Virus record (IMG/VR): IMGVR_UViG_3300025137_000027
Coordinates: 1 to 64,000 of that record
Source of the DNA: a virus
Length of the DNA stretch: 64,000 nt
Direction: 5' to 3' (one strand)
Shown here piece by piece: positions 99-53,015 of this stretch; the stretch's first letter is position 1; every line of letters begins with the position of its first letter. A model generated the notes under the pieces. The model had not been told where the DNA came from and did not search any database. It worked only from the letters and a program-made list of their open reading frames with translations. The position numbers and the translations under genes were made by a program.

Positions 99-132
99 TC
101 TGAAGAAGACATCATTGTTTAGAAACTAGAAA

Positions 133-639
133 ATGAAAAAGCCAAAACATATGAAGTTAGAACTGTACCGTATGAGTACCGGCAAGGACAGTACACTAGG
201 AACTTTGTTTCTTAGTAAAGGCAAAGACAAAAGAAAGTATCTTTGCTTTACATTAGAGGATGAGCATCGTGACGAGAAGGTGATGGCAGAAACGCGCATC
301 CCGGCTGGCGTATACGATATTAAGCTCAGAGACTTCGGTGGTTACCACCAGAAGTATAGCAAACGTTTTAAAGACATTCACAAAGGAATGTTGTGGCTTC
401 AGGACGTACCAAACTTTAAGTATATACTAATCCACTGTGGCAACACGGAGGAGGATACAGCAGGATGCTTGCTTACCGGCTATGGGCCAAAGCGAGTAAA
501 GGATGGAGAATTTGAATTGTATAATAGCACCCAGGCGTATTTTGATGTGTACCCGCCTATAGCAAACCATCTTGCAGATGGAGGTACCGTAACTATTAAT
601 ATCTATGACTTCGATGAAATTCCAGAACGGATGGGGTAA
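133..639 (+). CDS. DUF5675-family protein, L,D-transpeptidase-like putative endolysin
   Basis: STLGTL...TLED...TRIPAGVY and ILIHCGNTEEDTAGCLL (His/Cys motif) match DUF5675; lies upstream of a holin. Confidence 0.75.
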   Translation: MKKPKHMKLELYRMSTGKDSTLGTLFLSKGKDKRKYLCFTLEDEHRDEKVMAETRIPAGVYDIKLRDFGGYHQKYSKRFKDIHKGMLWLQDVPNFKYILIHCGNTEEDTAGCLLTGYGPKRVKDGEFELYNSTQAYFDVYPPIANHLADGGTVTINIYDFDEIPERMG

Positions 640-769
640 CCCAAATAAGCACGGAGATAAATTTATCTACAAGCTTCGAATCGGCACTATAACGGTGTTT
701 GACTTTATTGTTGACCTGAGTTCTAAAATGTACTCAGTTACTTTTTTCAACTTTACAATTAAGTTCTAA
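614..769 (+). CDS. small 51-aa protein in lysis cassette (below the ORF-track cutoff)
   Basis: MKFQNGWGNPNKHGDKFIYKLRIGTITVFDFIVDLSSKMYSVTFFNFTIKF; fills the gap exactly, stop TAA overlaps the holin ATG (TAATG). Confidence 0.65.
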   Translation: MKFQNGWGNPNKHGDKFIYKLRIGTITVFDFIVDLSSKMYSVTFFNFTIKF

Positions 770-1215
770 TGGACAAACTCCGCGACACTAAACTAGGGTC
801 GTGGCTAAAAGAAAAAGCGCCCAAGATTTTTGAAACAGTAGCCGACGCATTACCTGATGCCGGACTTCTGGGCGTAGTAAAGAACCTTGTAAATGCAGAC
901 AGTAGCCTTAGCCACGAGCAAAAACTAGAGTTCGAACGTCTTGAACAACAAGAGCGTATTGCATTAGAAGAGAACGTTACAAAACGTTGGACAGCTGATG
1001 TAGGATCTAAGAGTTGGCTTTCGAGGAATGTACGTCCCTTGATTGTAATGTCTTTGACTTTTATGTTTTTGGTTTTCATCTTGCTTGATACACTCTCTCC
1101 TGTTGAAGTGCGAGACGCTTGGATTAAGATGTATGAAACTATTCTAATGACTACTATTGGCGGCTACTTTGTAGTGCGTTCTGTAGATAAAAACCAGCTG
1201 CCATGGCAACGTTAA
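769..1215 (+). CDS. putative holin (3TM gene-transfer-release holin-like family)
   Basis: RWTADVGSKSWLSRNVRPL motif followed by two hydrophobic segments and GGYF..RS..K. Confidence 0.7.
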   Translation: MDKLRDTKLGSWLKEKAPKIFETVADALPDAGLLGVVKNLVNADSSLSHEQKLEFERLEQQERIALEENVTKRWTADVGSKSWLSRNVRPLIVMSLTFMFLVFILLDTLSPVEVRDAWIKMYETILMTTIGGYFVVRSVDKNQLPWQR

Positions 1216-1853: not shown

Positions 1854-2280
1854 GTATAGTACTAAAGATTCCTACAGATGGTTTAAGAAACAGAATCCTA
1901 GTACAACAATTACTTATTCGTTGTATAAGCATATTATTACAGCGTTTAATAAACGTGTAAGTGATCGGCTACTAGAGGGGCAGGTATTTAATATGGGTCA
2001 AAGACTTGGCTCTTTAAGAATTAAAAAGATACCGCGTACCTTTAACAAGCCTACAATAGATTGGGGAGAGACCAATCGCCTAAAGAAACAGGGGATAAAG
2101 AAGCTTGTTTATTACACCGATGATTTTTATTATAGGTGGAACTGGGACAAGCATAGGTGTTTGGTTAAGAACAAGAGTGTGTACACGTTTGCTCCTACTG
2201 CAGGGCAAAGCGGTAATCGACGTAAGCTCGTACAGAAGTTAAAAACTGATGAATTCGCACACTTGAACTACAAAACATGA
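1822..2280 (+). CDS. IHF/HU-like DNA-binding protein (crAss tail-module type)
   Basis: Basic; helix-helix then LLEGQVFNMGQRLGSLRIKK HU-like arm; IDWGET and YYTD..Y...W motifs; conserved crAss position. Confidence 0.6.
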   Translation: MTATKYSSASRYSTKDSYRWFKKQNPSTTITYSLYKHIITAFNKRVSDRLLEGQVFNMGQRLGSLRIKKIPRTFNKPTIDWGETNRLKKQGIKKLVYYTDDFYYRWNWDKHRCLVKNKSVYTFAPTAGQSGNRRKLVQKLKTDEFAHLNYKT

Positions 2281-3077
2281 TCTACAAAACAGTCTCATCT
2301 AAAGCTGTAATTGCGAAAGTCTTTCGTGATTTAAAGCCTACTACAGATACATGGGTCAATGACTCTGTGGAGTGGATGGGTGAGGCTCTCGAGTTTATCG
2401 GGTATTTTACTGGGTTAGAGAAAAAAGCAATGGAGCTTACTATTTCTAATCACCGTGCTTTACTCCCGTGCGAGCTTGTCGACATTGTTCAGGTAGAATA
2501 CAATGGGAGCCATTTGCACTACGGAACAGATACGACTGGGTATGATCTACCTAATGCTCCTCGTACTACTAACACACAGCCTTATAATGCGTCTGAGATT
2601 ACCACAGGAGCAGTGTTCCAAACTGTAGCAAATGAGCATCCTACAGGCAACAGTACGTACAAGCAGCAGAAAACCATAAAAGCTTCTTCTTACGGAGGAG
2701 GAGACTACTATGTTATTAATCCGGATTACATTCAAACTTCTTTTGAAGAGGGCACTATAAAAGTTCATTACACTGCTTATCCGATTTGCGATGACGGTTA
2801 CCCTAAAATTCCGGACAACATTTATTATAAGCAGGCACTCGAATGGTACATTCTAAGACAGATGATTATGGGGGGTTACACTCATCCGTTTCTGAATTGG
2901 CAGATAGCCGATCAAAAGTGGGGGCATTACTGTGTGGCTGCACAGAACGATGCAGCATACCCGAGCATCGACAAGATGGAGAGCTTCAAAAACATGTGGG
3001 TACGAATGGTTCCCAACATGAATGCACACTCCGATTTCTTTATTGGGAATAACACACAAGAGAGACTGCAGCGATGA
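2277..3077 (+). CDS. tail tubular/ring protein
   Basis: WMGEALEFIG, N-x-x-A-x-LPC, YIQTSFEEG and DGYPKIPD motifs; directly upstream of the tail stabilization gene. Confidence 0.65.
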   Translation: MIYKTVSSKAVIAKVFRDLKPTTDTWVNDSVEWMGEALEFIGYFTGLEKKAMELTISNHRALLPCELVDIVQVEYNGSHLHYGTDTTGYDLPNAPRTTNTQPYNASEITTGAVFQTVANEHPTGNSTYKQQKTIKASSYGGGDYYVINPDYIQTSFEEGTIKVHYTAYPICDDGYPKIPDNIYYKQALEWYILRQMIMGGYTHPFLNWQIADQKWGHYCVAAQNDAAYPSIDKMESFKNMWVRMVPNMNAHSDFFIGNNTQERLQR

Positions 3078-6000
3078 AACCTATCAAAGGCATGAACTTA
3101 GACGTATCTCCGGATGCGCAACCGCCTAATACGTATCGTCACGCGCGTAACTGGGTGTATGACAAAACGTTCGACGGTTTAATGCAAGAACCAGGGCACA
3201 CTGCACTAGCTACCCATCAGAGTAGACACGCTGTTGGGCAACACGCTTATGAAAATGGAGATATTGTTTTCCTAACTGTAGCGTCAAATGCTGCAACAGG
3301 GGGTGAGGAAGTGGTGCTTTATACTGCCGCCACGAATACTTTTAGTGTAGTTTACAATGACTCGGCTTTAGTGTTCAACCGTGCTAGAATCTATGACTTT
3401 GCTTCTTTTCGCAATACGGATAACGAACGTATTCTAATTATTTCAGACGGAATAGATAAACCTCTATCTATAAATATAGATGTTGCAGCAGCTCAGCAGC
3501 CGCCGCACGGGTTGCAATACTTATTTGCAACGAGAGAGCAGGCCAACTTAAAGTTAGATGTAAGAACTTCAGGCTCTCTTGGAGAAGGTTCTTATTTTTT
3601 GGCTATTAGGTATGTTATGAAGGACAAAACCAAGCTCTCTTTTGGCCCAATACATGGACCTTTTACAGTAACGGACTCTGCTGGGTTTATTGTAGAGCTT
3701 ACAAATCTTGATACAAACTACGAAGGATACGAAATTGCCGTTTTAGCATTTGTAAACAACAGCCCGAGTACTTTCATAGGTGCATCAGGGTTAATTACAG
3801 GGGCTACTCTAAACTCTTACATTGAAGGAACTCCTATCGAAGCATTAGTTTTAGAAGACGTAATAGTAGGCGCGACTACTTACCAGACTGCAGGTTCTTT
3901 AGAAGTTCATGAAAACCGCCTTTACTTAGGAAATGTTAGTACGCCTTCAGATCCTGTAGATTTACAGCAGATTGCTAATAAAATTCAACCTATATGGGTT
4001 TTAAGTAGAGGTGTTACTGCGCAACCATCGGAGGAACCCGAGACGTCACGGTTTCAACCAGACGAGGTGTATGCTTTTTATGTATCTTATATTCGAGAGG
4101 ATGGGTCTCAAACTAGAGCTTACCATATCCCAGGACGAGCGGCTAGCTCGACTATTGCGGTTCCTATAACTGCCACAGCTTCTGCTACAGTAAGTACAGG
4201 AACTACGCGTACAATTAACCCAAAAGCAACTCTTAAAGCTATCTTAGAATCTACGTCTACTAATGGAGTAGACAACCATGAGAACGCCCTAGAGTATTTA
4301 AAAAATGACCGTCAGATTTTTGTCAGCGGTGATGCTGAATTTGACACTGTAAAATACTTTCATACGCGCGGTACGGCTAAAGCTTTTACCAATCAAACAG
4401 CTTTTCACTTTGGGGAGTGCGGGTATTGGGAAAACGACAACGAAACATACCCAACGGGGTTTCCTGTAGGCACTACGTATACTTGGAATGCTAGTGGGTT
4501 AAGCGCTGCATCTGTAGATTCTGCTGTAGTTTTAGCGGGGGAAAAAGTCCGACATCATCGTGTACCTTCTTTAGGCTGGATGTTTGAAAACGTAAGTGAC
4601 TTTGATTTTCAAGCAGACAAGGATCACGCATTTCAAATGCGGTTTGAGTACTTGGAGTTGCCGACTGGAATAAAAGGAGCCGTACTATATCATGCAAAAC
4701 GCACTAATTCTAACAATTTAGTTTTAGCCCATACTCCAATCCATTTTGGGGCCGCAAATCACTATTCGGTATGGGGCGAGGGAGGGACTGAGTATAGAGA
4801 CTACTCTACTGTATCTCCGGTAAACGCTCCCTTGCGTAACAATCTTCTTTCTCTTGCAGGTACTTCTCCAGGCGCTCCTATATCTTCTGCTGTTTCAAAC
4901 GCTCTCCGGGATGCTGCAGGAGATCCGAAAAAAGCGGATGGAAGTGCTTTTTCTACAAACGACTACTTTGATGTTGACGACGCCAGTCAGGCTAGCTTAA
5001 GCGTGTGGGATTCGGAGTTTTCTGATCGCGTTAAAGTGCACTACAACAAAGGGGCTGCAATGCCTCACGATTTGCTAGGAGCAAAGCCTGCTTTGCCTCA
5101 AAAAGTATACACGCGTCTTGAGTATGTTTTAATGGCAATGGAAGAGTACCCAGACGACATAAGTGGTCATCCTTCTATTACTGATGGCAATCACCATACT
5201 ATGCAGATTGCGGATACTAACGATGCATATTATTACGCAGATACAACTCTTCCAGGAACCCCGTTACCTAACTCTGCGAATAGATCAGGAGTTTTTAATT
5301 TTGTAGCGCACAACACTCAGATAAATAGACCTTTTCCTCAATCTGAAATTTTACCTACTCGGAATATTCGGTACGTTCCCGCAGGTGTAGTAGATGATGA
5401 AGTAAAGTTTGATAACCGGTTTGGAGCTGAATGTCTTTACTGGGATTACGCATTGCAATCCACTGGTTACGGGAACTATTCAGTTGCTGGTCACCACAAT
5501 ATGGGCGCTCGCATGTGGTATAGCATTTTAAATAATACCAATACTTTTAGCGATGACGGGACAGGGGATACGGATAATGCTAGCTTTACAAATAGTTTAC
5601 CTTCAGGTGGCACAAATACCCAAACTAACAACGCCGGGTATTTTGTAAATACCCAATTTTCGGCTAACGATGTTCTTGCAGTGCAGCGGTTGCCTTTTGT
5701 AAATGTTACAGCTATGCGCTTTGACTGTTATTTTGGGATTGAAGCTCAAGACTTAGTAGCCTGCACTCAAGTAATTACACTCGCTAATACTACCGTAGCG
5801 CCAAATATCAATAGTCAGGCTAGCTCTTTAAGAAGGGTGGCTGAAACTCAGGTTCACGGAGATATTAAGTTTTCGGAACGAAGGTATAGAGTTACGTCTT
5901 CTTCAGGTTGGAATGTAGGGTTTGCTGCTAGCGTAGAAGATCAACTGCAGATTACCACTTTTGCAGCGCCTGATATATCTGCCCAAGCTTTGACTACAGT

Positions 6001-7573
6001 TCCAACGGCTGGCACCATTAATAATTCAAGAGGGTCTGTTCGAATGGTTCACAAAGTCCCAACGTATGGGCCTGTCGAGAGTAAGATTCATCTTGCTGAA
6101 ACCGTGCAAGGTTTAGAATCTGAGTTTGAGGCGTGCTATAGACAAGTAAGTCCTCAAGAAACAAATGATGTTTCTTTTATTTCTAGCTTGTTAAAATTGA
6201 ATGACTGGATTCAGCCTCTGATACATGTAACCACATCTGAGTACCCCACATCTTTTGCGTATCGCATTGCTCGTAGTTCAAAGCAAGATCTTGGTACCTC
6301 CGTTTTGGCGTATAGATCTTTCCCAGCTTTAGACTATTTAGAACAACCTCGAACGCGTGGGGTTATTACAAACTTGCAGAGTTACTCAGATAAACTTTTG
6401 ATTCATCACGAGCAAAGTCTTTTTGTGACGGTAGGTAAAGAATCTGTTGCGACTTCTTCTGGGCAACTTGTTATAGGTACGGGAGATATCTTTCGCGTTA
6501 CTCCTTCGGAAATAGCTCCTAGTGAGTTTGGGTTTGGGGGGACGCAACATAAACAATCAGCTGTACTTACTCCCAGAGGTTATTTTTATGTAGACGCTCT
6601 TCAGGGTAAAGCTTTTTTGTACAATGGCAAACTAGAAGAGATTAGCAATCGCGGTATGCGGGACTACCTTAAGGACGCGCTTAAACTCAATACTACGTGG
6701 TTTCCAGGCGGTAATGCTCAAAGTTACTACCCTGGAGTATTAGCAGAGTATGACTCTGAGTTTAACAGGGTTATGTTAATGATTCGGAATAATACTTGGG
6801 TAGGGTCATATGGCGTAGGAAATACTACTCTTCCTTTTGATTTGAAAGATTATTACGCTAATACCTTCTTTAAAGATCAGACAGAGATACTGTCGTATAG
6901 CTTTAATAACAGTGCTTGGGTAGCTTTTCACGACTTACGTATGAATGCGTTTGTTGCTTCTGGAACAAATTTTTATAGTTGGAATACGGGACCAGTTGCA
7001 TCTCCGCCTCCGGCTGGAACATACTTAAACTTATTTAAGTTAAACGATTTTACAAATGCTTCTATTACGTACCATCACGATAGTGTCACAACAACTGTAG
7101 ATCCTTATATCGATATTGCATTCCCTGCAAAAGAGTCTGTTCAATGGCAATCTTTTTCGTGGCACACAAAGGCTATAGAGCATGTGCCAAATGATGCTAA
7201 TGCAGGGCATATAGATTTAACTAAAACGTTTGTAAAAGCTGCAGTTTATAATGACTACCAGTGTAGCGGAAATCAGACTTTTATTAAACCAGGAGACATT
7301 GATATTCAAACCTACCAGCGAGTGACTCTACGTCATAATGGTACTCAGTATCAGTTTAATGGGTTTAGAGATTTAGTGAATAATCGTTCTCTCAGGTTTA
7401 TTGACGATGCGCAAGAGTTTGTTACTGCTAATATTAATGCGGCTACTGTTTGGCACGATCAAAGACGTTTTAATAGCACTCATGCTATTCTTCGTTTAAT
7501 TGCTCCGACTACTACTACTAATCTGTTATATTTACATGATGTAGATGCTAAAGTGCGTAAGAGTTATAGATAA
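3074..7573 (+). CDS. tail stabilization (muzzle) protein, P22 gp10-like beta-propeller
   Basis: 1499 aa; KGMNLD..P....NTYR.ARN start, NRLYLGN, RFQPDEVYAFY, VRHHRVP, GGTQH, LSYSF...WVAFH; typical of crAss Tstab. Confidence 0.75.
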   Translation: MKPIKGMNLDVSPDAQPPNTYRHARNWVYDKTFDGLMQEPGHTALATHQSRHAVGQHAYENGDIVFLTVASNAATGGEEVVLYTAATNTFSVVYNDSALVFNRARIYDFASFRNTDNERILIISDGIDKPLSINIDVAAAQQPPHGLQYLFATREQANLKLDVRTSGSLGEGSYFLAIRYVMKDKTKLSFGPIHGPFTVTDSAGFIVELTNLDTNYEGYEIAVLAFVNNSPSTFIGASGLITGATLNSYIEGTPIEALVLEDVIVGATTYQTAGSLEVHENRLYLGNVSTPSDPVDLQQIANKIQPIWVLSRGVTAQPSEEPETSRFQPDEVYAFYVSYIREDGSQTRAYHIPGRAASSTIAVPITATASATVSTGTTRTINPKATLKAILESTSTNGVDNHENALEYLKNDRQIFVSGDAEFDTVKYFHTRGTAKAFTNQTAFHFGECGYWENDNETYPTGFPVGTTYTWNASGLSAASVDSAVVLAGEKVRHHRVPSLGWMFENVSDFDFQADKDHAFQMRFEYLELPTGIKGAVLYHAKRTNSNNLVLAHTPIHFGAANHYSVWGEGGTEYRDYSTVSPVNAPLRNNLLSLAGTSPGAPISSAVSNALRDAAGDPKKADGSAFSTNDYFDVDDASQASLSVWDSEFSDRVKVHYNKGAAMPHDLLGAKPALPQKVYTRLEYVLMAMEEYPDDISGHPSITDGNHHTMQIADTNDAYYYADTTLPGTPLPNSANRSGVFNFVAHNTQINRPFPQSEILPTRNIRYVPAGVVDDEVKFDNRFGAECLYWDYALQSTGYGNYSVAGHHNMGARMWYSILNNTNTFSDDGTGDTDNASFTNSLPSGGTNTQTNNAGYFVNTQFSANDVLAVQRLPFVNVTAMRFDCYFGIEAQDLVACTQVITLANTTVAPNINSQASSLRRVAETQVHGDIKFSERRYRVTSSSGWNVGFAASVEDQLQITTFAAPDISAQALTTVPTAGTINNSRGSVRMVHKVPTYGPVESKIHLAETVQGLESEFEACYRQVSPQETNDVSFISSLLKLNDWIQPLIHVTTSEYPTSFAYRIARSSKQDLGTSVLAYRSFPALDYLEQPRTRGVITNLQSYSDKLLIHHEQSLFVTVGKESVATSSGQLVIGTGDIFRVTPSEIAPSEFGFGGTQHKQSAVLTPRGYFYVDALQGKAFLYNGKLEEISNRGMRDYLKDALKLNTTWFPGGNAQSYYPGVLAEYDSEFNRVMLMIRNNTWVGSYGVGNTTLPFDLKDYYANTFFKDQTEILSYSFNNSAWVAFHDLRMNAFVASGTNFYSWNTGPVASPPPAGTYLNLFKLNDFTNASITYHHDSVTTTVDPYIDIAFPAKESVQWQSFSWHTKAIEHVPNDANAGHIDLTKTFVKAAVYNDYQCSGNQTFIKPGDIDIQTYQRVTLRHNGTQYQFNGFRDLVNNRSLRFIDDAQEFVTANINAATVWHDQRRFNSTHAILRLIAPTTTTNLLYLHDVDAKVRKSYR

Positions 7574-7632
7574 CTCGAGAGTAGCAATCAAGTGTATAGA
7601 ATATAAGTACGCGCTCTCACAACATAACTGCT

Positions 7633-7839
7633 ATGAAATACGGTAAGAAAAAGCCTGTTAAAAAGGCTGCTAAAAAGGTGCCTGTCATGACTTATGGTGG
7701 GGCTATGTCAGCTGCTACTCGTCAAATTAAATTGACTAAAGGAGGTAAAACTCCTACGGCTTTAATTAACGCACTTAAAGCTGCGGGACACCTCAAGATG
7801 TTTGGAGGTAAGACTGCGACTTCTAAAAAGAAAAAGTAA
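7633..7839 (+). CDS. small Lys-rich basic protein
   Basis: 68 aa, very K-rich, contains MTYGG and KMFGG. Confidence 0.65.
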   Translation: MKYGKKKPVKKAAKKVPVMTYGGAMSAATRQIKLTKGGKTPTALINALKAAGHLKMFGGKTATSKKKK

Positions 7840-7962
7840 GAGGATTTAAACGTCCTTAAAAGATTAACGAATAGATTCGAAAAGGAAACCCTTGGGGGTC
7901 AGCCTACACGTCTGCCTGCAGTAAAACGTCAGAAAACGTACTACTACTAAACGTAAACGGTG

Positions 7963-10098
7963 ATGAAAGGCTTTTTATTCTTTTTTGGTTCTCTATTGCC
8001 TGCAGTACTGCTTGGACAGAGCTGGGTACTTGTGTCATTGCAAACAGATCTGTACGCGCCTGAAACAAGCTGGGTTATTGTACAGGGGGAGGAGGTAGTA
8101 GAGGAGTCTTCTCTGTATCTTACAGAGTCGTACAATGAAAAGATTGTTTACCTGCAGCCCGGCAATTACGACTTTATTATTTACGATAGTTTTGGCGACG
8201 GTATTTGCTGTGCGTTTGGGGAAGGTTACTTCTCTTTATCTAATTCTTGCGGGTTAGATATTTCGGTATATGATTTTGCATCATCCGCACTGACTGTTCC
8301 TTTTGAAGTTCTGCCCTGCCCACCTCCGATTTTTGGATGCAGTGATCCTCAGGGAGTTAACTACAACCCTTGGGCAAACGTTTCTCAGCCTTGTGTTTAT
8401 CCCCCACAACCTTGCGCGGAAGGAGAAACTACTGTTATTGTTACTGTTACTCCTGATACGTATGCGGGGGAGATTAGTTGGGGGCTTCAGTCTAATGGGG
8501 TAGAGATACTATCGGGCAGTGGGTATACTTCTGTAGGAGTCCCGGTTACATACGATGCATGTATTGCTGTTGCAGACACGCTTGTTTTAGAAGTGCTAGA
8601 CACTTTTGGCGATGGGATGTGCGGAAGCTGCTACGGGGGAGTGGACGGCAATATTTCTATTACAACCTTATGCCAAGACACCCTATTTTATGTAGGCGAT
8701 ACAACGCAATACTCTGCTATTTCTAGTGAGTTAATTATAGTAGAAGAGTGCGTGTTAGATCTGCTTGAAGGATGTACAGATTATAACTTTACTGAGTATG
8801 ACCCGCTTGCTCTTATTGACGACGGTTCTTGTACTACAGAGGTTATTCTAGGTTGCACTATACCAGGCTCTTTAAACTTCAACCCAGAAGCTAATACTTT
8901 AGAAACTAACCCTATATGTATGAGCCTGCTTACTCTAACCGATGGGGCGGGCGATGGCTGGTTTGGAAGTTGGTTAGGCGTTATCCAAGGGGATGAGATT
9001 TTTGGTCCATTTCAAATGGGGCCTAATGATGGCATAGAAGAATTTTTCTATCTCCCGCTCTACTCCGGCGAACCCATTCAAGTTTACTTCTTTACTGGGG
9101 GCAACGCTGAAACCACTGCTGCTCAATGTGGTTTTCTTCTTACCAGTCCTCAAGGCATCTTCTTGGAGGCGGGCAGTAACCCTTGGAACGACGCTATTAA
9201 GAAGTTTCCCTATTCCTATACAGGTGTTCCCTTCTGCAATGACTTGTGTATCGAATCGGTAATCGGGTGTATGGACTCCCAAGCCTGTGATTATAACTCG
9301 CAGTCTAACGTACAAGGGGACTGTACTTTTCCTATTGAGTTCTACAACTGTTCGAACGAGTGCATCTTTGATACTGACAATGATGGTATTTGCGATGAGT
9401 TGGAGGTTGTAGGGTGTATGGATGCTACTGCCTTTAATTACAACGAACTTGCTAGTGACCCAGGAGAATGTGACCCATTTGTCTTTGGGTGTATCGACCC
9501 CACCCAATATAATTACGACCCTGCAGCGAATACGGATAACGGTAGCTGCATTCCCTTTGTGTACGGCTGTACTGATGTACTCGCTATCAACTTTGAGGAG
9601 GACGCGAATACTGACAACGGAGGGTGCGTTGAAGCTGTCATGGGTTGTATGGATCTTGATGCTTATAACTTCGAGGTTTCCGCTAATATAGCGAATAATG
9701 GTATATGCTTGTATGATGCCGGCTGCATTACAGGACCTGGGCAACCTTACTGGGCAAACGACTCTTGCTACTCTTGGGTTATTGAAGTCGATCCTTTTTG
9801 CTGTGAGTCAGAGTGGGACGGGGCATGCCAAGAACTTCACGCTTACTGCGAGTTAGGCTGGCCTACAGATGTTACAGAGATAAATCACACTATTCGAGTG
9901 TATCCTAATCCTGTACAAGACCTGTTAAACATTAGCTGTCCGAATCTGCAATATGCAAAGGCGTATAATAGCCTTGGTCAATTAATTTATGAAGGGGCAG
10001 AGTCTGCAATTAGTACCGAGCACTGGAAACCTGGCGTATATCATGTAACAGTCTACGCTTACTTGCGGTCTTACCAAATTAAAATTGTAAAGTCATGA
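7963..10098 (+). CDS. secreted Cys-rich repeat protein with type IX secretion (T9SS) type A C-terminal sorting domain
   Basis: N-terminal signal peptide; 8 GCxD..A.NY...A..D.G.C repeats; C-terminus VYPNPVQDLLNI...YNSLGQLIY...WKPGVYHVTV...QIKIVKS fits the type A CTD consensus; ATG at 7963 (GTG at 7960 alternative). Confidence 0.85.
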   Translation: MKGFLFFFGSLLPAVLLGQSWVLVSLQTDLYAPETSWVIVQGEEVVEESSLYLTESYNEKIVYLQPGNYDFIIYDSFGDGICCAFGEGYFSLSNSCGLDISVYDFASSALTVPFEVLPCPPPIFGCSDPQGVNYNPWANVSQPCVYPPQPCAEGETTVIVTVTPDTYAGEISWGLQSNGVEILSGSGYTSVGVPVTYDACIAVADTLVLEVLDTFGDGMCGSCYGGVDGNISITTLCQDTLFYVGDTTQYSAISSELIIVEECVLDLLEGCTDYNFTEYDPLALIDDGSCTTEVILGCTIPGSLNFNPEANTLETNPICMSLLTLTDGAGDGWFGSWLGVIQGDEIFGPFQMGPNDGIEEFFYLPLYSGEPIQVYFFTGGNAETTAAQCGFLLTSPQGIFLEAGSNPWNDAIKKFPYSYTGVPFCNDLCIESVIGCMDSQACDYNSQSNVQGDCTFPIEFYNCSNECIFDTDNDGICDELEVVGCMDATAFNYNELASDPGECDPFVFGCIDPTQYNYDPAANTDNGSCIPFVYGCTDVLAINFEEDANTDNGGCVEAVMGCMDLDAYNFEVSANIANNGICLYDAGCITGPGQPYWANDSCYSWVIEVDPFCCESEWDGACQELHAYCELGWPTDVTEINHTIRVYPNPVQDLLNISCPNLQYAKAYNSLGQLIYEGAESAISTEHWKPGVYHVTVYAYLRSYQIKIVKS

Positions 10099-11135
10099 GA
10101 CTAGCAGTCCTTTTGTTTTTTACCGCTTTACCATTTGTAGGACAGGCGCAGGTATTTAAGAATTTTTTTAAATACTCTACGTTATACGCAGCTGCTAATG
10201 GCAATAATTCTTTAGCTACAACAGAAGCGTATTCTATAGATGGTAATACTGTTCAGTATGACTTAATCCAAACGCCCTTTGACTACAGCTTAACACTAGG
10301 CATTCGTAAGATTGCTAGGTTTGGTTATGAGAATAGAGCAAATGCATTTTACGATGGAACTGAAAAAACTTATGGAGATGATGCTACTATAGGTAAAAGG
10401 CAAGGCTTTGAGTTTTTATCTGAGATTGATTATCGCAGGCAACAAGGTCGGGTGCTAGTAAACCAACATCACTTTTTACGGTATGTATCAAAACGTTGGC
10501 TGGCTAAAGTTGAATACTTAGAAGATGGGTTTGCAGATGTGAAGTACGCGGAGGGGTCACAGCGTTTGCGTATTAATAGTAAAGGCAAGCTTTCTTTTAA
10601 CGCAGGCATTGCGCAGCGCATTTCAGAGGCGTACGGCTACGATCCCATCGCGGAGTGGGTAGAGGCTAACAACTCTGTTCATTACACCACCTTAGCGCTC
10701 CAAGAGGGTTATAGCGTGGATTTTAATACACAAGACTTCCTTAATCCAAATGGCGAAAGGGTAGCAAGTAGCATAGATGTTTGGAGAGAGGTTGTGATTC
10801 CTACGGTTCTTAGCGACTATGCTGAAAAACAACGTCTACTTCTTGGGGACCAGTGGTGTCATAGTCTAGTGCTAGGTTACGACTACTACTACAATAGCAA
10901 AGATTTATGGTTGCACACCTGGGGTAACTTCTACCCTTACCATCTAGATCTAAACAACGAGTACTCTTACAATACTCTTATCGGAGCTAACGACTGGTTA
11001 GACTTGTCAGTAGGCGTGGTTAGCGGGTGGCGAATTACTAAAAGTTTAGGTATTTTTTTAGAGGGGACTTACAACCGGTATTGGAACCGTTCGTGGCATA
11101 ATTTTTCTGCTGGGGTAAACTATGTAATTTATTAA
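10095..11135 (+). CDS. putative outer-membrane beta-barrel protein
   Basis: Signal peptide ending GQA-Q; many amphipathic, aromatic-rich strands; C-terminal beta-signal-like NFSAGVNYVIY. Confidence 0.65.
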   Translation: MRLAVLLFFTALPFVGQAQVFKNFFKYSTLYAAANGNNSLATTEAYSIDGNTVQYDLIQTPFDYSLTLGIRKIARFGYENRANAFYDGTEKTYGDDATIGKRQGFEFLSEIDYRRQQGRVLVNQHHFLRYVSKRWLAKVEYLEDGFADVKYAEGSQRLRINSKGKLSFNAGIAQRISEAYGYDPIAEWVEANNSVHYTTLALQEGYSVDFNTQDFLNPNGERVASSIDVWREVVIPTVLSDYAEKQRLLLGDQWCHSLVLGYDYYYNSKDLWLHTWGNFYPYHLDLNNEYSYNTLIGANDWLDLSVGVVSGWRITKSLGIFLEGTYNRYWNRSWHNFSAGVNYVIY

Positions 11136-11425
11136 TGATGGGAAAGGAATTAAATGAAGACACGAGCTTTCAGGTAAGTATTAAAACATTGCTTACTATT
11201 GGGGCGGGGATGGTGGTGATAATTAGTGGTTGGTTTGTTTTACAAGCTGATATTGAGGAAGCTAAGAAGTTGCCGGAACCTGCTGAGCCTGAGATTACAC
11301 GCATGGAATTTGATATGAAAGACAAGCTTGTGCGTCAAACTATTATGACAACCCAAGAGGATGTTTCTGAAATAAAAGATGACATGAAACGGATAGAAGA
11401 AAAAATTGATAACTTAAGAAAATGA
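11135..11425 (+). CDS. single-TM coiled-coil membrane protein
   Basis: Hydrophobic LLTIGAGMVVIISGWFVL followed by a heptad C-terminus (EIKDDMKRIEEKIDNL). Confidence 0.65.
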   Translation: MMGKELNEDTSFQVSIKTLLTIGAGMVVIISGWFVLQADIEEAKKLPEPAEPEITRMEFDMKDKLVRQTIMTTQEDVSEIKDDMKRIEEKIDNLRK

Positions 11426-11429
11426 ACTA

Positions 11430-11795
11430 ATGAAAATTATTACCGCAATATTTGCTACTTTTGTTGTGGGTGCATTGATATTTGCTACACCTGATGTAGC
11501 GAATACAGAAAATCTATATGAGGGTCTTTGCGTTGTAGAATTTAACGCAGGCTTTAACTCACAGAACAGTGTTCCTTGGATAGAGGAACTCACAGATTGT
11601 ACGGGCCGGCGAGTAGACATCGCTTCTTCCCCAGCAGAACAAGCAGATCACAGCATCGTAGTAGTGCCTACAATCATTATTTTTAATGAGGGGCAAGAAG
11701 TAAAACGGTACCAAGCTAACATCATGATGGAGTTAGAGGTACAGAAAGAAACTATTCAAGAGGATATTGATGAAATCATAATGAGCGACTTCTAA
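11430..11795 (+). CDS. exported thioredoxin-fold protein lacking CxxC
   Basis: Signal peptide; VVEFNAGF, VDI and VVPTIIIFNEGQEVKRY (cis-Pro loop) follow the Trx pattern; its two Cys are far apart. Confidence 0.65.
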   Translation: MKIITAIFATFVVGALIFATPDVANTENLYEGLCVVEFNAGFNSQNSVPWIEELTDCTGRRVDIASSPAEQADHSIVVVPTIIIFNEGQEVKRYQANIMMELEVQKETIQEDIDEIIMSDF

Positions 11796-11962
11796 TGGCT
11801 ACTAAAAAGAAAAAGGGTTTATACGCAAACATCCATGCAAAACGAAAACGCATCAAAGCCGGATCGGGTGAAAAGATGCGCTCAGCTGGAGCAAAGGGTG
11901 CGCCTACTAAAAAAGCGTTTAAGCGATCTGCAAAAACTGCAAAACGACGTAAAAAGCGTTAG
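11795..11962 (+). CDS. 55-aa basic phage protein (below the ORF-track cutoff)
   Basis: MATKKKKGLYANIHAKRKRIKAGSGEKMRSAGAKGAPTKKAFKRSAKTAKRRKKR; TAATG-coupled to the upstream gene; GLYANIHAKRKR recurs in marine phage small proteins. Confidence 0.8.
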   Translation: MATKKKKGLYANIHAKRKRIKAGSGEKMRSAGAKGAPTKKAFKRSAKTAKRRKKR

Positions 11963-11964
11963 TG

Positions 11965-12267
11965 ATGGCAGCAACACGCAAGGCAACTTCTATTCGCAAA
12001 ACCACAAAGGGGAAAGGGGCAAACTACCGCTCGACCAAAAAGGGTGCGGGGATGACTGCAAAAGGTGTACGTGCATACCGAAAAGCAAACCCAGGGAGTA
12101 AGCTAAAGACAGCTGTTACTGGTAAGGTTAAAAAGGGAAGCAAGGCAGCTAAGCGGCGTAAGTCGTATTGTGCCCGTTCTTTAGGGCAGCTAAAGCGTTC
12201 TAGTTCTAAGACTAAAAATGATCCTAATTCACGCATACGCCAAGCACGTAGGCGTTGGAAATGCTAA
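11965..12267 (+). CDS. basic protein, DUF6321-like
   Basis: GMTAKGV..YR.ANPGSKLKTAV...RRKSYCAR...DPNSRI..ARRRWKC motif. Confidence 0.7.
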   Translation: MAATRKATSIRKTTKGKGANYRSTKKGAGMTAKGVRAYRKANPGSKLKTAVTGKVKKGSKAAKRRKSYCARSLGQLKRSSSKTKNDPNSRIRQARRRWKC

Positions 12268-12269
12268 TT

Positions 12270-12398
12270 ATGGAAGACGAATTTGACATCTCTTTTCTCG
12301 ACTCAGAGAAACTTAAAAAATCTCAAGAAAAACTTGAGAGCGGAGAAATTACATGCAACCTGGACGACCCAGAAGATTGCGAAAGCTGTAGCGGATGA
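12270..12398 (+). CDS. 42-aa acidic peptide with C-terminal C-x7-CxxC, resembling the ribonucleotide reductase alpha redox tail
   Basis: MEDEFDISFLDSEKLKKSQEKLESGEITCNLDDPEDCESCSG; fills the gap, ATGA-coupled to the next gene. Confidence 0.7.
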   Translation: MEDEFDISFLDSEKLKKSQEKLESGEITCNLDDPEDCESCSG

Positions 12399-13981
12399 GC
12401 AAGAAATTTAACGGAGAACGGTGCGAGCGTCGAAACTTAACTGATTTAGTTCTGGGTACGGGACCAACTGGTATGAAGCGCCCTGTTACTAAAAAGAAAC
12501 AACCTGCTAAGTCGACTGTTCCTCAAATGAACTACGGAGGGCCTTTCATAGCTTCTGATTACTATGCTAATTTAGCTAACGCTAATCCAGAAATGGTTGA
12601 GAATGGTGCAATGCAAGCTCCTGAAGGATTCGAGTTTCCTACTGAGGGTGGCGCTACTATGACTCCTGGGCAATTCCCAGAATTTATGAAGCAGTATCTT
12701 GCAAAACAGGGCAACATGAGTCTAGCAAGTTCTGCAGGTCAATCTGCAGGACAGTTTATTACCCAAAATTCGGATACTGTTGGTGACCCTATGGCTAATT
12801 TTGGCGTAGGAGAAGGGCTAGGGGCAGCTGTAAGCGGAGCAGCTAACCCTTTCGCTATGTCTTTTGGACCTGCAGGCATGGTAGTTGGTGCTGGGGTAGG
12901 TTTACTTAAGGCTAGGCAAGAGAGTAACATGGAAAAAAATCGTTTCATAGCAGAAGAAGAAAGACTTTCTGGTATGCGAACGGCTGCAAATGTGGCTAAT
13001 GCACAAGACTTTAGTCGTCAGGCTTTAAGTACTTACGATCAAGACGGTGCAGGAGGAGGGTACTACTCTAAGTATGGAGGACCAGTAGATCGTTTTTACA
13101 TGGGAGGAGCTACTAAGCGACAGTATCCCCATGGCGGAGGAACTCATCCTCCTGTTATTCCTGGGATGGAGCAATATGCCCAATACAATAACTTAAATCC
13201 TGATCTTGCTGCTGCTGTTGCAAACCGGCCTGAGACTTCTGATAGGTTAACAAATTATACTAATGCGGAACAGCGCAGGTATAACAATATAGGAAATCAA
13301 ACACGTATAAATTCTGCTGTTGAAAATGCGAGGAATAATGCAAATACTTTTGCTACTAACACTTATAATTTTCATAAGGAGCAACCTTTGGATGCGCTAG
13401 GCATGGATTTAGCTATTGCTGGTCAGCTCCCTATAGTAGGCGAGGCGGCGGACTTATTAAATGCTGGAATTAGTGGAGCGCGAGGCTTTTACAATACTGC
13501 AGTAGGAGATACCGCAAAAGCTAAAGAACAGTATGCATTAGCGACACTTAGCGGGTTAAGTGCAATCCCTATTGCAGGAAATGTAACTGGAGCAGCTCGC
13601 ATAGGTAAAGGACTGTACAAGGCTTCTCATGGTGCTCACAAGCTAGAGAGAGGGGTCATTGGCGCAAAAGGAGTAAAAGCCGGGACTTACGAGTCTTATG
13701 CTATGGGCGGCCCTATCGATTATGAAACTGAAAAAGAAGAAGTTATATTAGCTTCGCCTTACGACCGACCCGTAGCGCCGGGACAAGGAAGCTATAACCA
13801 GCTGTCTGAAAATCTTTTTAAAGGTAATGGCCCTAGTCACGCGCAAGGAGGTATTCCTACACGAGGTGCTACACAACCATTTGTAGACGCTGGAGGGCAA
13901 CCTGTTGATAGCCCATATGTATTTAGCGATTCTAAAGATATGAAATTTGATCCGAATGACATTTTATCTATGATCACATGA
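12395..13981 (+). CDS. virion cargo/ejection protein with Gly-rich hydrophobic segments and a pre-toxin-like motif
   Basis: GPSHAQGGIP and YVFSD motifs of crAss cargo proteins; repeated x-x-x-GG motifs; QLPIVGEAADLLNA...LSAIPIAG segment. Confidence 0.6.
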   Translation: MSKKFNGERCERRNLTDLVLGTGPTGMKRPVTKKKQPAKSTVPQMNYGGPFIASDYYANLANANPEMVENGAMQAPEGFEFPTEGGATMTPGQFPEFMKQYLAKQGNMSLASSAGQSAGQFITQNSDTVGDPMANFGVGEGLGAAVSGAANPFAMSFGPAGMVVGAGVGLLKARQESNMEKNRFIAEEERLSGMRTAANVANAQDFSRQALSTYDQDGAGGGYYSKYGGPVDRFYMGGATKRQYPHGGGTHPPVIPGMEQYAQYNNLNPDLAAAVANRPETSDRLTNYTNAEQRRYNNIGNQTRINSAVENARNNANTFATNTYNFHKEQPLDALGMDLAIAGQLPIVGEAADLLNAGISGARGFYNTAVGDTAKAKEQYALATLSGLSAIPIAGNVTGAARIGKGLYKASHGAHKLERGVIGAKGVKAGTYESYAMGGPIDYETEKEEVILASPYDRPVAPGQGSYNQLSENLFKGNGPSHAQGGIPTRGATQPFVDAGGQPVDSPYVFSDSKDMKFDPNDILSMIT

Positions 13982-33589: not shown

Positions 33590-34858
33590 ATGAAAAATAA
33601 AATAATCTTTAAAACGCTTAGCCTACTTTGGTTAGGCGTTTTTCTTGGCTATAATAATTATAGTCAATCTGTCCCCTTTATAGAAGGAATAAACTTATTA
33701 TTTCCTGGGTGCACTGATCCTATGGCGCTCAACTACAATGAGGAAGCTACTGAAGATGATGGCACCTGCGTCTATTCTATAGGCCCAGATCCAGTCATAC
33801 TTAATATAACTGTTACAGATGAAAGCTGCCAAGAGTACGAGACAGGAGTCCTGTCTTCTTACGTATACGAGGCTACTATAGTAAATATAGGAAACGAAGC
33901 AGTTACAAACTTTTGCCTTAGCGACTTCTTAGGTACCACGTTTAACTGTTTTAACGGGGTCTCTAATCTTGCTGTTTGGATTCAACCCGGGGATACTATA
34001 ACTGTGACGGGTAACATCAATAGTATAGGCACATGGGTAGAAGGACAAGGAAACTATATGACTGTAACGAGTGTTCCTGGGGAGGTTATTACAGGTAATA
34101 ATAACTTTGTTTTTTATATGCCTGAGGGAGTGGATTGCGTAGAGCCTGCTGATCCTGAATACTGCGATACTCTACTGGTCTACGTGACTGAAATAGACAC
34201 GCTTATTGAGTATGTAGAACTTCCGGCTGATACAGTGACTGTGCTGCAGCTAGACACGTTGTATATTCCTTGGGAGTATTATTTCTACGATACGGTATAC
34301 GTAGATGTTTTTGACACTATTTACGTGACAATGCTAGATACTGTAATTATTACAGAAATAGATTTACAGTATGTATATGAAACAGATACTATTCTTGTAC
34401 TACAAGTAGACACAGTTCTTGTGTCTCAAATAGATACTCTCTTTCAGGAGGTAGTAATCTATGAATATATCTACCAGACGGATACAGTACTCCAAGTAGT
34501 ATACGATGAGGTTTTAATAGACTGCGGGACCGGTCTACCTTGTATAGGAGGTTTCTCAGGCATGACGTGTGAATCTGTATTCATACCAAATGCGTTTTCT
34601 CCAAACAACGATGGCATTAATGATACTTTCTATGTAGTATCTGAATCTTATGACTGCTGGTTAGAATGGCAGTTAATCGTATACAATAGGTGGGGTACTG
34701 CAATTTGGAGCAGCGATGATCCGCAAGCCCAGTGGTATGGACAAGCAGAAAATCAAATGCATTACGTTTCAGATGGCGTGTATGTCTGGACTCTGCGGGC
34801 AAAGGGAGCCACAGGTAACGCGTTAGATCTATCAGGGTCAGTTACGGTCTTCCGTTGA
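33590..34858 (+). CDS. secreted protein with T9SS type B (gliding-motility/CHU_C) C-terminal domain
   Basis: Signal peptide; GCTDPMALNYNEEATEDDGTC repeat; DT repeats; C-terminus VFIPNAFSPNNDGINDTF...YNRWG...W.G...GVYVW...GSVTVFR. Confidence 0.88.
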   Translation: MKNKIIFKTLSLLWLGVFLGYNNYSQSVPFIEGINLLFPGCTDPMALNYNEEATEDDGTCVYSIGPDPVILNITVTDESCQEYETGVLSSYVYEATIVNIGNEAVTNFCLSDFLGTTFNCFNGVSNLAVWIQPGDTITVTGNINSIGTWVEGQGNYMTVTSVPGEVITGNNNFVFYMPEGVDCVEPADPEYCDTLLVYVTEIDTLIEYVELPADTVTVLQLDTLYIPWEYYFYDTVYVDVFDTIYVTMLDTVIITEIDLQYVYETDTILVLQVDTVLVSQIDTLFQEVVIYEYIYQTDTVLQVVYDEVLIDCGTGLPCIGGFSGMTCESVFIPNAFSPNNDGINDTFYVVSESYDCWLEWQLIVYNRWGTAIWSSDDPQAQWYGQAENQMHYVSDGVYVWTLRAKGATGNALDLSGSVTVFR

Positions 34859-52643: not shown

Positions 52644-53015
52644 TTATTCATGGTAAGCCTTACCTAGAATAGTGCGGTAATAATGACGCTCGGATTCAAC
52701 TCGAGTACTTCTCCTGACATAGGAAAGAATACTGGAAGAAATAAGAGCGCCATATAAAGAGAACTTAATCATAAACCATAGTATAGAGCTATCAGTTTGG
52801 ATGTCTAGATACATAGAGAGTAACATACATCCAAAGGTTAGCCCATATGCTACGCGTTCGCTGATTTCTGCATCATCTAATAACTTGCAGAGCTTGAGTA
52901 CTTGTACTCTGTGGTCGTCTGCCTGTTTGGGAGTCATGCCATCGAGTGGGTCAGGCAGCTGACTCCAGTTTAGTTTATTCAATGGGATGCTACGCTTATT
53001 GATTGACTTACTCAT
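52644..53015 (-). CDS. two-TM membrane protein
   Basis: ATG at 53015 is ATGA-coupled to the upstream lipoprotein gene; two hydrophobic segments. Confidence 0.55.
   Translation of the reverse strand: MSKSINKRSIPLNKLNWSQLPDPLDGMTPKQADDHRVQVLKLCKLLDDAEISERVAYGLTFGCMLLSMYLDIQTDSSILWFMIKFSLYGALISSSILSYVRRSTRVESERHYYRTILGKAYHE

What the first reader, a model, noticed from the sequence alone, without database searches (positions are those of the whole stretch)
7963..11795. Phage-encoded cell-surface cassette: T9SS cargo, outer-membrane beta-barrel, membrane anchor and exported thioredoxin fold
Seen: four tightly coupled genes (ATGA and TAATG overlaps, one 4-nt gap) inserted in the tail/cargo operon, all with export or membrane signals. 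They encode a Cys-rich protein with a type A T9SS CTD, a predicted beta-barrel with a C-terminal beta-signal, a TM plus coiled-coil protein, and a secreted Trx-fold protein. Established: CTD proteins cross the Bacteroidota outer membrane through the T9SS translocon with barrel shuttles such as PorV, and gliding/T9SS defects confer phage resistance in Flavobacterium. Inference: this is a dedicated viral system that builds a surface structure on the infected cell or occupies the host T9SS. Possible roles are superinfection exclusion, masking receptors so progeny do not bind debris, adhesion or grazer evasion. I know of no characterised phage system of this kind.
Basis: partly seen in the sequence, partly recalled or inferred. 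Interest (0 to 1): 0.9.

Follow-up and report, generated by a model that had tools for sequence, protein, structure and literature searches.

The report
Phage envelope module with T9SS cargo
An uncultured marine crAss-like phage carries a swappable four-gene set that sends proteins to the host's inner membrane, periplasm, outer membrane and (through type IX secretion) cell surface; related phages keep it beside their lysis genes, so it probably acts on the host envelope at the end of infection, by a mechanism nobody has tested.

Summary
Four translationally coupled ORFs encode:
- O1, a 40-Cys protein with a genuine type-A T9SS CTD.
- O2, a ~14-strand outer-membrane barrel of no named family.
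- O3, a 96-aa protein with one TM segment and one helix.
- O4, an exported thioredoxin fold without CxxC.

The set is real phage DNA. An independent sample covers both boundaries with no mismatch.

It is widespread: over 3,000 O2 proteins and 67 IMG/VR loci. It is phage-only, with no match in isolate genomes or GenBank phages.

O2-O3-O4 stay together in at least five unrelated phage backbones. O1 is present in 46 of the 55 loci with a full trio, and only 3 loci with long flanks lack it.

In several backbones the set directly abuts, or lies inside, the endolysin/holin cassette. A close relative (L090) lacks it at the same site, so it is a replaceable accessory module.

O2 shows no PorP/SprF signal and only a non-specific resemblance to PorV.

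Best reading (about 0.4): the trio is a periplasm-spanning late module acting at lysis, a spanin analogue with an OMP as its outer part. O1 would be a separately evolving, surface-binding T9SS cargo. Surface masking or superinfection exclusion remains a live rival.

Phage T9SS cargo has precedents (2019, 2020). I found no published description of the trio. This scan has met the same module on other genomes, with similar verdicts.

The parts
7960..10098 (+). O1: secreted Cys-rich protein (712 aa). Signal peptide, three beta-sandwich modules, GCxD..DDGSC repeats, a helical Cys module and a type-A T9SS CTD.
   Evidence: (15 of 28 homologues reach PF18962, best E 2.8e-12).
9886..10095 (+). T9SS type-A C-terminal sorting domain of O1 (aa 643-712).
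   Evidence: Six-frame PF18962 hit at 9898-10068, 32.2 bits. The model superposes on 8glj_D, 8glk_D and 8gl6_D and on the RgpB and mirolase CTDs (Z 8.1-9.7).
10095..11135 (+). O2: outer-membrane beta-barrel of about 14 strands. It has a helical insert (aa 180-250) and a highly conserved, low-confidence segment (aa 69-90). No named family.
   Evidence: 3151 homologues; 266 clusters at 50% identity.
11135..11425 (+). O3: 96-aa bitopic membrane protein with a short N-tail, one TM segment, a Pro-rich linker and a ~45-aa helix. Mean identity is 63% across backbones.
   Evidence: The N-in/C-out topology is inferred, not shown.
11430..11795 (+). O4: exported thioredoxin-fold protein. The cis-Pro loop is kept, CxxC is replaced by WNxxN, and the C-terminal Phe is invariant (...SDF).
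133..639 (+). DUF5675 protein, the probable endolysin of this phage. In L005-L007 its homologue lies directly upstream of O1.
   Evidence: PF18925 E 2.5e-25. A preprint assigns the domain structurally to C82-like peptidase lysins. Synteny.
769..1215 (+). Holin. The same family lies directly after the module in other backbones.
   Evidence: phrog_3427 holin E 3.8e-17. Cluster c20 in L004, L005, L008, L020, L022 and L035.
33590..34858 (+). Second T9SS cargo of the same phage, with a type-B CTD (CHU_C).
   Evidence: PF13585 64 bits in the six-frame search and 60.7 bits on the protein.
11795..12267 (+). Two small basic-protein genes (G_55 and H_101/DUF6321), translationally coupled to O4. Homologues follow the trio in 28 loci. 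H_101 marks the right edge of the replaceable block.

Best explanation
The block is a phage-only accessory module whose products are addressed to every layer of a Bacteroidota envelope. It is made late, together with virion and lysis proteins.

O2 (outer-membrane barrel), O3 (inner-membrane anchor with a Pro-rich linker and helix) and O4 (catalytically dead periplasmic thioredoxin fold) form a conserved trio. It most likely assembles into a periplasm-spanning complex and acts at the last step of infection. That would be outer-membrane disruption or its control, the job done elsewhere by two-component spanins, here with an OMP in place of the lipoprotein.

O1 is a separate, faster-evolving partner. 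It is a non-enzymatic binding protein built of beta-sandwich modules, exported by Sec and then by the host T9SS to the cell surface or the medium.

Shown: the folds, the targeting signals, the co-occurrence, the adjacency to lysis genes, the absence from cellular genomes, and the presence/absence polymorphism.

Inferred: complex formation, O3 topology, late timing, and any role in lysis.
For: Trio linkage: O2, O3 and O4 are together in 55 of 68 loci. Most of the rest are cut off at a contig end.

Backbones: the set occurs in at least 5 backbones that share no other detectable genes. O2 clades follow the backbones.

Lysis adjacency:
- O4-amidase-holin in 10 loci.
- O4-M15 peptidase-holin in L022.
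- DUF5675-O1-O2-SNase-O3-O4-lipoprotein-holin in L005 (L006 and L007 show the same order as far as they reach). This group is the sister clade of the window's cassette (98/97 support).
- A recognised lysis gene lies within 0-1 called ORFs of the module in 19 loci, and within 0-5 in 27.

No canonical spanin: no TM-protein/lipoprotein pair sits beside this phage's holin or DUF5675 gene. The only good lipobox ORFs are in the early block.

Literature: Kongari et al. list 91 of 677 phages without spanins and propose that 'an OMP could act as an o-spanin'.

Conservation: O3 and O4 are conserved over their full length (63% and 42% mean identity). O2's most conserved stretch has low model confidence, as a binding segment might.

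Phage-only: the one scan of 185,579 species genomes, run with the O3 profile, gave only 7 hits. All are MAG contigs, and 4 are plainly mis-binned.

Transcription: contigs from RNA libraries bridge the F_68-O1, O1-O2, O2-O3 and O3-O4-G_55 junctions.
Against: - In the window itself the module is 7 kb from the holin, inside the tail/cargo genes.
- O3's periplasmic part (~55 aa, one helix, no Cys) is shorter than typical i-spanins. Its orientation is ambiguous by the positive-inside rule.
- No spanin PHROG matches any of 16 O3 members.
- A barrel cannot obviously take part in membrane fusion.
- Late genes cluster anyway, so adjacency to lysis genes is suggestive rather than proof.
- O1 is found in nearly all loci with enough flank (only L047, L067 and L068 lack it). 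The spanin reading leaves that link unexplained.
- The close relative L090 lacks the module on its whole 43-kb contig (54% complete), so it is dispensable or replaceable.
- RNA-library contigs may derive from contaminating DNA.
Confidence: 0.4

Rival explanations
1. Surface remodelling. O1 is displayed or released through the T9SS, and the trio anchors it or helps assemble it. The result masks the phage receptor or changes adhesion. That would give superinfection exclusion, or stop progeny from adsorbing to debris and vesicles after lysis, a role like T5 Llp (from my own knowledge).
For: - O1 is a genuine T9SS cargo with CBM/C2-like beta-sandwich modules and no catalytic domain. Three of 28 homologues add a MAM adhesion domain.
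- O1 is far more variable than the trio (30% against 39-63% mean column identity), as expected for a protein facing variable surfaces.
- O1 co-occurs with the trio in 46 of 55 loci. It overlaps the O2 start (ATGA) here, and the uninterrupted order O1-O2-O3-O4 is seen in 15 loci.
- The phage carries a second, type-B cargo.
- Being an accessory present/absent block fits a moron-type function.
Against: - The trio occurs without O1 in L067/L068.
- In 39 loci O1 is separated from the trio by 0-8 genes.
- The barrel has no similarity to T9SS shuttle or anchor barrels.
- Exclusion genes are usually early or lysogenic, whereas this block sits in the late operon beside lysis genes.
- The idea assigns no role to an inner-membrane anchor or a dead thioredoxin.
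Confidence: 0.25
2. A T9SS helper. O2 is a phage-specific shuttle or anchor barrel, functionally like PorV or PorP/SprF. O3 and O4 act as periplasmic chaperone and tether. Together they ensure secretion of the phage's own type-A and type-B cargo late in infection.
For: - O2 is about the size (346 aa) of PorP/SprF proteins (305-342 aa in three Bacteroidota MAGs). Its model has about 14 strands.
- Type-B cargo normally needs a cognate PorP/SprF barrel (from my own knowledge). This phage has a type-B cargo but no PorP/SprF gene.
- O1 and O2 are translationally coupled.
Against: - hhalign of the O2 family against PorP/SprF gives 6% probability and aligns the signal peptide only.
- No PF11751 hit at E <= 1.
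- The PorV match is non-specific (Z 8.0 against 10.3 for CymA).
- The trio persists where no CTD protein lies within 7.6 kb (L067/L068).
Confidence: 0.1
3. A lysis-timing sensor. O3 (and O4) act like a periplasmic antiholin, comparable to T4 RI (97 aa; from my own knowledge). They would read an envelope signal through O2 and O1 and delay or trigger the holin.
For: - O3's size and TM-plus-periplasmic-domain layout.
- Its position next to holins in several backbones.
- Conservation of O3's cytoplasmic N-tail as well as its helix, which suggests partners on both sides of the membrane.
Against: - No sequence similarity to any holin or antiholin family beyond one stray hit.
- The neighbouring holins belong to at least two unrelated families (Phage_holin_4_1 and phrog_3427), while O3 stays 50-80% identical. 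That argues against a holin-specific partner.
Confidence: 0.1
4. Ordinary virion parts (a fibre or decoration protein plus assembly factors) that merely look exported.
For: - Location inside the tail/cargo operon.
- The Cys repeat of O1 also occurs in a cyanophage 'virion structural protein'.
Against: - Cleavable-type signal peptides on O1, O2 and O4, a BAM-type barrel and a T9SS CTD are incompatible with cytoplasmic virion assembly.
- The close relative L090, with 90-92% identical neighbouring genes, lacks the block.
Confidence: 0.03

Closest known systems
Two-component spanins (lambda Rz/Rz1 type; survey in Kongari et al. 2018, PMC6139136)
   Same: - Phage-encoded.
- One partner anchored in the inner membrane with a helical periplasmic part, another partner in the outer membrane.
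- Genes overlapping or adjacent.
- Located in or beside the holin/endolysin cassette in several backbones.
- The survey itself proposes an OMP as a possible o-spanin.
   Different: - The outer partner is a ~14-strand barrel, not a small lipoprotein.
- There is a third, periplasmic pseudo-thioredoxin.
- O3 has one short helix and no Cys.
- No sequence match to spanin PHROGs.
- In this window the set is 7 kb from the holin.
- A function in lysis is untested.
Phage-encoded T9SS type-A cargo: 'Cryophage' variable genes (Bellas et al. 2020, PMC7468147) and T9SS-sorting-domain ORFs in gut crAss-like contigs (de Jonge et al. 2019, PMC6949934)
   Same: - A phage gene ending in a type-A CTD, presumed to hijack the host T9SS.
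- The cargo is highly variable between related phages.
   Different: - The Cryophage cargoes are an endoglucanase, a GH39 hydrolase and a PA14-domain protein. The gut crAss-like ORFs are BACON-repeat proteins or unnamed CTD proteins.
- O1 is a Cys-rich, non-enzymatic multi-sandwich protein.
- O1 is linked to a conserved envelope trio, and the same phage carries a second, type-B cargo.
T9SS outer-membrane barrels PorV and PorP/SprF
   Same: - An outer-membrane barrel of similar size, encoded next to a CTD cargo.
- PorV is among the structural hits (6h3i_F Z 8.0; 8gl6_F in Foldseek).
   Different: - No sequence or profile similarity.
- The structural match is no better than to unrelated porins.
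- O2 travels with O3 and O4 rather than strictly with the cargo.
Phage superinfection-exclusion / receptor-masking envelope proteins (e.g. T5 Llp; from my own knowledge)
   Same: Small phage-encoded proteins exported to the host envelope that alter the surface for the phage's benefit.
   Different: - Those are single lipoproteins expressed early.
- This is a four-part, late-operon set that spans all envelope layers.
Thioredoxin family
   Same: O4 has the fold and the cis-Pro loop. Its profile hits thioredoxins at E 1e-8.
   Different: The active-site CxxC is absent in all 57 members, so O4 is a binding or scaffold domain, not an oxidoreductase.

Membership tests
T9SS type-A cargo (TIGR04183 / PF18962) | C-terminal sorting domain scoring above the curated cut-offs | tested here: met
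   PF18962 27.7 bits (cut-off 27); TIGR04183 23.9 (cut-off 23); 32.2 bits in the six-frame search. The margin is narrow in this copy, but 15 of 28 homologues match, best E 2.8e-12.
T9SS type-A cargo (TIGR04183 / PF18962) | CTD adopts the Ig-like beta-sandwich of solved CTDs | tested here: met
   Model aa 643-712 against 8glj_D (Z 9.7, rmsd 1.8 A over 70 residues, 27% identity). Also 8glk_D, 8gl6_D and the RgpB and mirolase CTDs. Foldseek 8glk_D TMt 0.77.
T9SS type-A cargo (TIGR04183 / PF18962) | N-terminal Sec signal peptide | tested here: met
   Hydrophobic N-terminus, aa 1-20. In most full-length homologues the leader ends just before Gln, the Bacteroidota pattern. No dedicated predictor was available.
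T9SS type-A cargo (TIGR04183 / PF18962) | Secretion depends on the host T9SS | not testable with these tools
   Needs expression in wild type against sprA/porV mutants.
Outer-membrane beta-barrel protein (BAM substrate) | Signal peptide, closed antiparallel barrel and a C-terminal aromatic/hydrophobic residue | tested here: met
   AF2 pLDDT 80.7, about 14 strands. The top hits are almost all OM barrels, best Z 10.3. Terminal F in 41, L in 9 and Y in 3 of 57 homologues.
PorP/SprF (PF11751) | Match to the family profile | tested here: not met
   No hit at E <= 1 in the phage genome. None of 42 O2 members hits it. hhalign against 12 PorP/SprF proteins gives 6% probability.
PorV (FadL-like T9SS shuttle) | Specific structural or sequence similarity to PorV | tested here: inconclusive
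   6h3i_F Z 8.0, within the range of unrelated barrels. No Pfam hit.
Two-component spanin | i-spanin: N-terminal TM domain with a periplasmic coiled-coil domain | tested here: inconclusive
   O3 has one TM segment and one ~45-aa helix. Its orientation is not decided by flanking charges, and it is shorter than typical i-spanins.
Two-component spanin | o-spanin: small outer-membrane lipoprotein with a lipobox | tested here: not met
   Neither O2 nor O4 has a lipobox Cys after the leader. The outer-membrane component is a barrel.
Two-component spanin | Genes lie in the lysis cassette | tested here: inconclusive
   Met in at least 4 other backbones. Not met in this window, where the module is 7 kb from the holin.
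Two-component spanin | Required for outer-membrane disruption at lysis | not testable with these tools
   Needs genetics in an isolated phage-host pair.
Thioredoxin (redox-active) | Thioredoxin fold with a cis-Pro loop | tested here: met
   Profile hits at E 9e-9 to 1e-5 to many thioredoxins. VPTIIIF..GEE loop.
Thioredoxin (redox-active) | CxxC active site | tested here: not met
   57 of 57 members have F[NV]A.[WF][NV] at that position. The only C..C strings lie in signal peptides.

The most novel reading that the evidence does not exclude
The O2-O3-O4 trio is a new class of phage outer-membrane-disruption system for Bacteroidota. It would be a three-part 'OMP-spanin': an inner-membrane tether and a pseudo-thioredoxin adaptor couple to a phage-made barrel. 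It would take the place of the lipoprotein spanins that have not been identified in these phages. The T9SS cargo O1 would be its co-evolving extracellular partner.
Probability: 0.3. Interest if true: 0.85.

Novelty: new variant of a known kind. Interest (0 to 1): 0.68.

Why it matters
How phages of Bacteroidota, major players in the ocean and the gut, breach or manipulate the outer membrane is essentially unknown. About one in seven phages of Gram-negative hosts in the 2018 spanin survey had no recognisable spanin.

The module described here is abundant: over 3,000 non-redundant O2 proteins, found in marine metagenomes from 12 studies. It is restricted to phages, is kept as a unit in several unrelated phage lineages, and lies next to their lysis genes. 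That makes it a concrete, testable candidate for the missing step.

It also shows that lytic marine phages routinely load their own cargo onto the host type IX secretion system. This phage carries both a type-A and a type-B cargo. That has consequences for cell-surface properties, particle attachment and phage-host arms races during algal-bloom turnover.

Tried and rejected
- **GenBank phages.** tblastn of the window's O2, O3 and O4, and of three diverged O2 relatives, against 50,697 records found no usable match. The deposited virus behind the BFVD hit A0A516LKJ4 could not be traced.
- **Genome scan with the O2 alignment** failed for lack of a conserved word. The O3 alignment was used instead.
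- **PorP/SprF membership** of O2 is rejected.
- **SH3_5.** Weak hits in 9 of 42 O2 members are below the cut-off and treated as chance.
- **Fusions.** Only 16 near-singleton longer forms of O3 exist. Two are O3-O4 read-throughs that keep O4's signal peptide, probably errors, so they are not used as evidence.
- **Promoters and terminators.** Sigma-70-type sites are at or below chance. The Bacteroidota motif TTTG-N-TAnnTTTG has no site before the cassette. The 120-nt leader has no stable fold (z -0.08).
- **Other endolysin families.** Amidase_2, Peptidase_M15_3 and Phage_lysozyme are absent from the phage genome.
- **GIANT.** The ~2,550-aa ORF upstream of O2 in 39 loci has no PHROG hit and no similarity to this phage's large proteins.
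- **The 68-aa ORF** that fills the slot in L090 belongs to no known family.
- **Whole-model fold search of O1** gave only generic beta-sandwich matches for the N-terminal domains.
- **RNA runs.** Parts of the region without cover in the RNA runs are not interpreted.

Full report
**What is there.** The window is the first 64 kb of a 76.9-kb IMG/VR virus record, 96% complete.

It is a distant crAss-like phage. It has a 4,910-aa ORF at 18854-33586. Its 1,499-aa tail protein is related to crAss 'stabilisation' proteins. A single long + strand block runs from 133 to 34858.

The four ORFs lie at the reported positions, and the reported overlaps are real. The coupling continues into two small basic-protein genes downstream.

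**The four proteins.**

O1 (712 aa, 40 Cys):
- It starts with a hydrophobic leader.
- It ends in a type-A T9SS CTD that just passes both curated cut-offs and scores 32 bits in the six-frame search.
- The call is secured by the family: 15 of 28 homologues match, best E 2.8e-12.
- The profile also hits solved CTDs.
- The AF2 model (pLDDT 74.5) has C-terminal 70 residues that superpose on CTDs solved inside the translocon (8glj_D Z 9.7, rmsd 1.8 A).
- The rest of O1 is three beta-sandwich modules, a run of short Cys repeats and a helical Cys module. No catalytic domain is apparent. The best N-terminal domain match is a CBM, 2xhh_A at Z 6.7.

O2:
- It folds with good confidence (pLDDT 80.7, pTM 0.74) into a barrel of about 14 strands.
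- Its top matches are almost all outer-membrane barrels.
- Most homologues end in an aromatic or hydrophobic residue.
- It belongs to no Pfam or PHROG family.

O3:
- It has one TM segment, a Pro-rich linker and one helix.
- It is strikingly conserved, with 63% mean identity.

O4:
- It is a thioredoxin fold by profile (E about 1e-8).
- The cis-Pro loop is intact, but WNxxN stands in place of CxxC in all 57 members.
- The C-terminal Phe is invariant.

**Is it real, and whose is it?**
- An independent DNA run covers 6500-13000 without a mismatch across both boundaries.
- Two other samples give the same gene order (L002 and L003).
- The stretch occurs in marine runs from 12 studies.
- Contigs from four metatranscriptome libraries bridge the gene junctions. 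This is compatible with a polycistronic message, but DNA carry-over is not excluded.
- O2 has 3,151 homologues in the 5.8-billion-protein set and 266 clusters at 50% identity. All are self-contained.
- No GenBank phage has O2, O3 or O4.
- The one scan of 185,579 species genomes, run with the O3 profile, returned only 7 hits. All are MAG contigs. Three are Bacteroidota and four are obvious mis-bins.
- The module is therefore phage-specific, and its hosts are Bacteroidota by inference.

**Synteny.** Among the 67 related viral loci plus the window, 55 hold the full trio O2-O3-O4, and 46 of those also hold an O1 homologue. Only L047, L067 and L068 lack O1 despite more than 7 kb of flank.

The loci fall into at least five backbones that share no other detectable genes:
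- (a) The window, L002 and L003: crAss-like.
- (b) 39 loci with a ~2,550-aa ORF directly before O2, and O1 lying 0-8 genes after O4.
- (c) 10 loci, on contigs up to 165 kb, with O1-O2-O3-O4 followed at once by a PG_binding_1+Amidase_2 endolysin and a Phage_holin_4_1 holin.
- (d) L004-L007. L005 shows the full order DUF5675, O1, O2, SNase, O3, O4, a lipoprotein, then a phrog_3427-type holin. The other three show the same order as far as they reach.
- (e, f and singletons) For example L022, with O4, an M15 peptidase and a holin.

In this phage, DUF5675 (133-639) and the same holin family (769-1215) sit side by side at the head of the late block. A 2026 preprint places DUF5675 structurally with C82-like peptidase lysins.

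The O2 tree follows the backbones. Group (d) is sister to the window's clade with 98/97 support. The nearest relatives of this cassette therefore lie inside a lysis cassette.

**Accessory status.** L090 comes from another sample.
- Its upstream genes A-D are 91-92% identical in protein to the window's, and H_101 is 90% identical.
- Nucleotide identity is 83-85% over window 132-3270 and 11965-12484.
- Window 7660-11964 is replaced there by 0.93 kb. That stretch encodes small basic proteins and a 68-aa TM-plus-coiled-coil ORF of no known family.
- The whole 43-kb contig (54% complete) has no O2 or O3 homologue.
- The block is therefore replaceable. That argues against an ordinary virion part and fits the cassette-like exchange typical of lysis and moron genes.

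**Link to the T9SS.**
- The phage encodes a second cargo with a strong type-B CTD (CHU_C, 64 bits). Use of the host T9SS by this phage is therefore well founded.
- The barrel, however, is not a recognisable T9SS component. PF11751 gives no hit. hhalign against 12 PorP/SprF proteins taken from three Bacteroidota MAGs gives 6% probability. PorV scores no better than unrelated porins.

**Interpretation.** The evidence fits a trio that spans the envelope and works at the end of infection. The spanin survey itself raised the idea that an OMP could serve as an o-spanin. No canonical TM-protein/lipoprotein pair lies beside this phage's lysis genes.

The weaknesses are these:
- O3's short periplasmic part and uncertain orientation.
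- The lack of any spanin-family match.
- The 7-kb distance from the holin in this genome.
- The unexplained, nearly constant company of O1.

I put the lysis-associated spanning-complex reading at about 0.4, surface masking at 0.25, and a T9SS helper and a lysis-timing sensor at about 0.1 each.

**Novelty.** Phage T9SS cargo was reported in Cryophage (PMC7468147) and in gut crAss-like contigs (PMC6949934). Five literature searches found no description of the trio.

Earlier follow-ups in this scan met the same module on other genomes and reached similar verdicts. I reached the lysis-gene adjacency before reading them and re-tested it here.
- the L090 replacement;
- the sister relation to the group that lies inside a lysis cassette;
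- the explicit PorP/SprF profile test;
- the independent-sample check.

Noticed in passing
window 33590-34858 (+): A 422-aa protein directly after the 4,910-aa ORF carries a strong type-B T9SS CTD (CHU_C, 60-64 bits). The phage encodes no PorP/SprF partner.
   Followed up: partly
window 133-1215 (+): A DUF5675 protein (candidate C82-like lysin) and a phrog_3427 holin form the probable lysis pair at the head of the late block. No Amidase_2, M15_3 or phage-lysozyme gene exists in the genome.
   Followed up: partly
window 53012-53164 (-) and 53567-53848 (-): Two small ORFs in the leftward early block have good lipoprotein leaders (lipoboxes LTSC and LTAC; 50 and 93 aa). They could be exclusion lipoproteins or a distant o-spanin.
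   Followed up: no
L090 15302-15508 (+): In a close relative that lacks O1-O4, the same slot holds a 68-aa TM-plus-coiled-coil ORF of no known family. It may be a functional substitute.
   Followed up: partly
window 11795-12267 (+); cluster 'basic115' in 28 loci: Small, very basic proteins (phrog_16028; DUF6321) follow the trio in backbones (a) and (b) and are translationally coupled to O4 here. Their function is unknown.
   Followed up: no
window 11057-11490 and 11925-12141: In DNA run X2 the summed contig depth jumps from about 7 to 93-397 over the conserved cores of O3 and H_101. Many contigs are 90-95% alike and run on into unlike flanks. These cores are therefore shared at nucleotide level by many co-occurring phages.
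   Followed up: no
L011 196-7962 and 38 other loci: A ~2,550-aa ORF with no PHROG hit, and no similarity to this phage's large proteins, lies directly upstream of O2 in backbone (b).
   Followed up: partly
L005-L007, L011, L030, L033, L035, L041, L053, L055: A leaderless staphylococcal-nuclease-like gene (SNase, PF00565) sits inside or beside the module in 10 loci.
   Followed up: no
window 13978-17313 (+): A 1,111-aa cargo-region protein contains a GH19/endolysin-like segment (phrog_181 E 6.6e-25). It is probably a virion-borne wall hydrolase for entry.
   Followed up: no
BFVD entry A0A516LKJ4: One unnamed deposited viral protein (342 aa, 23% identity) has the O2 fold (E 1.4e-26, TM 0.73). 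Its genome could not be found in the phage collection.
   Followed up: partly
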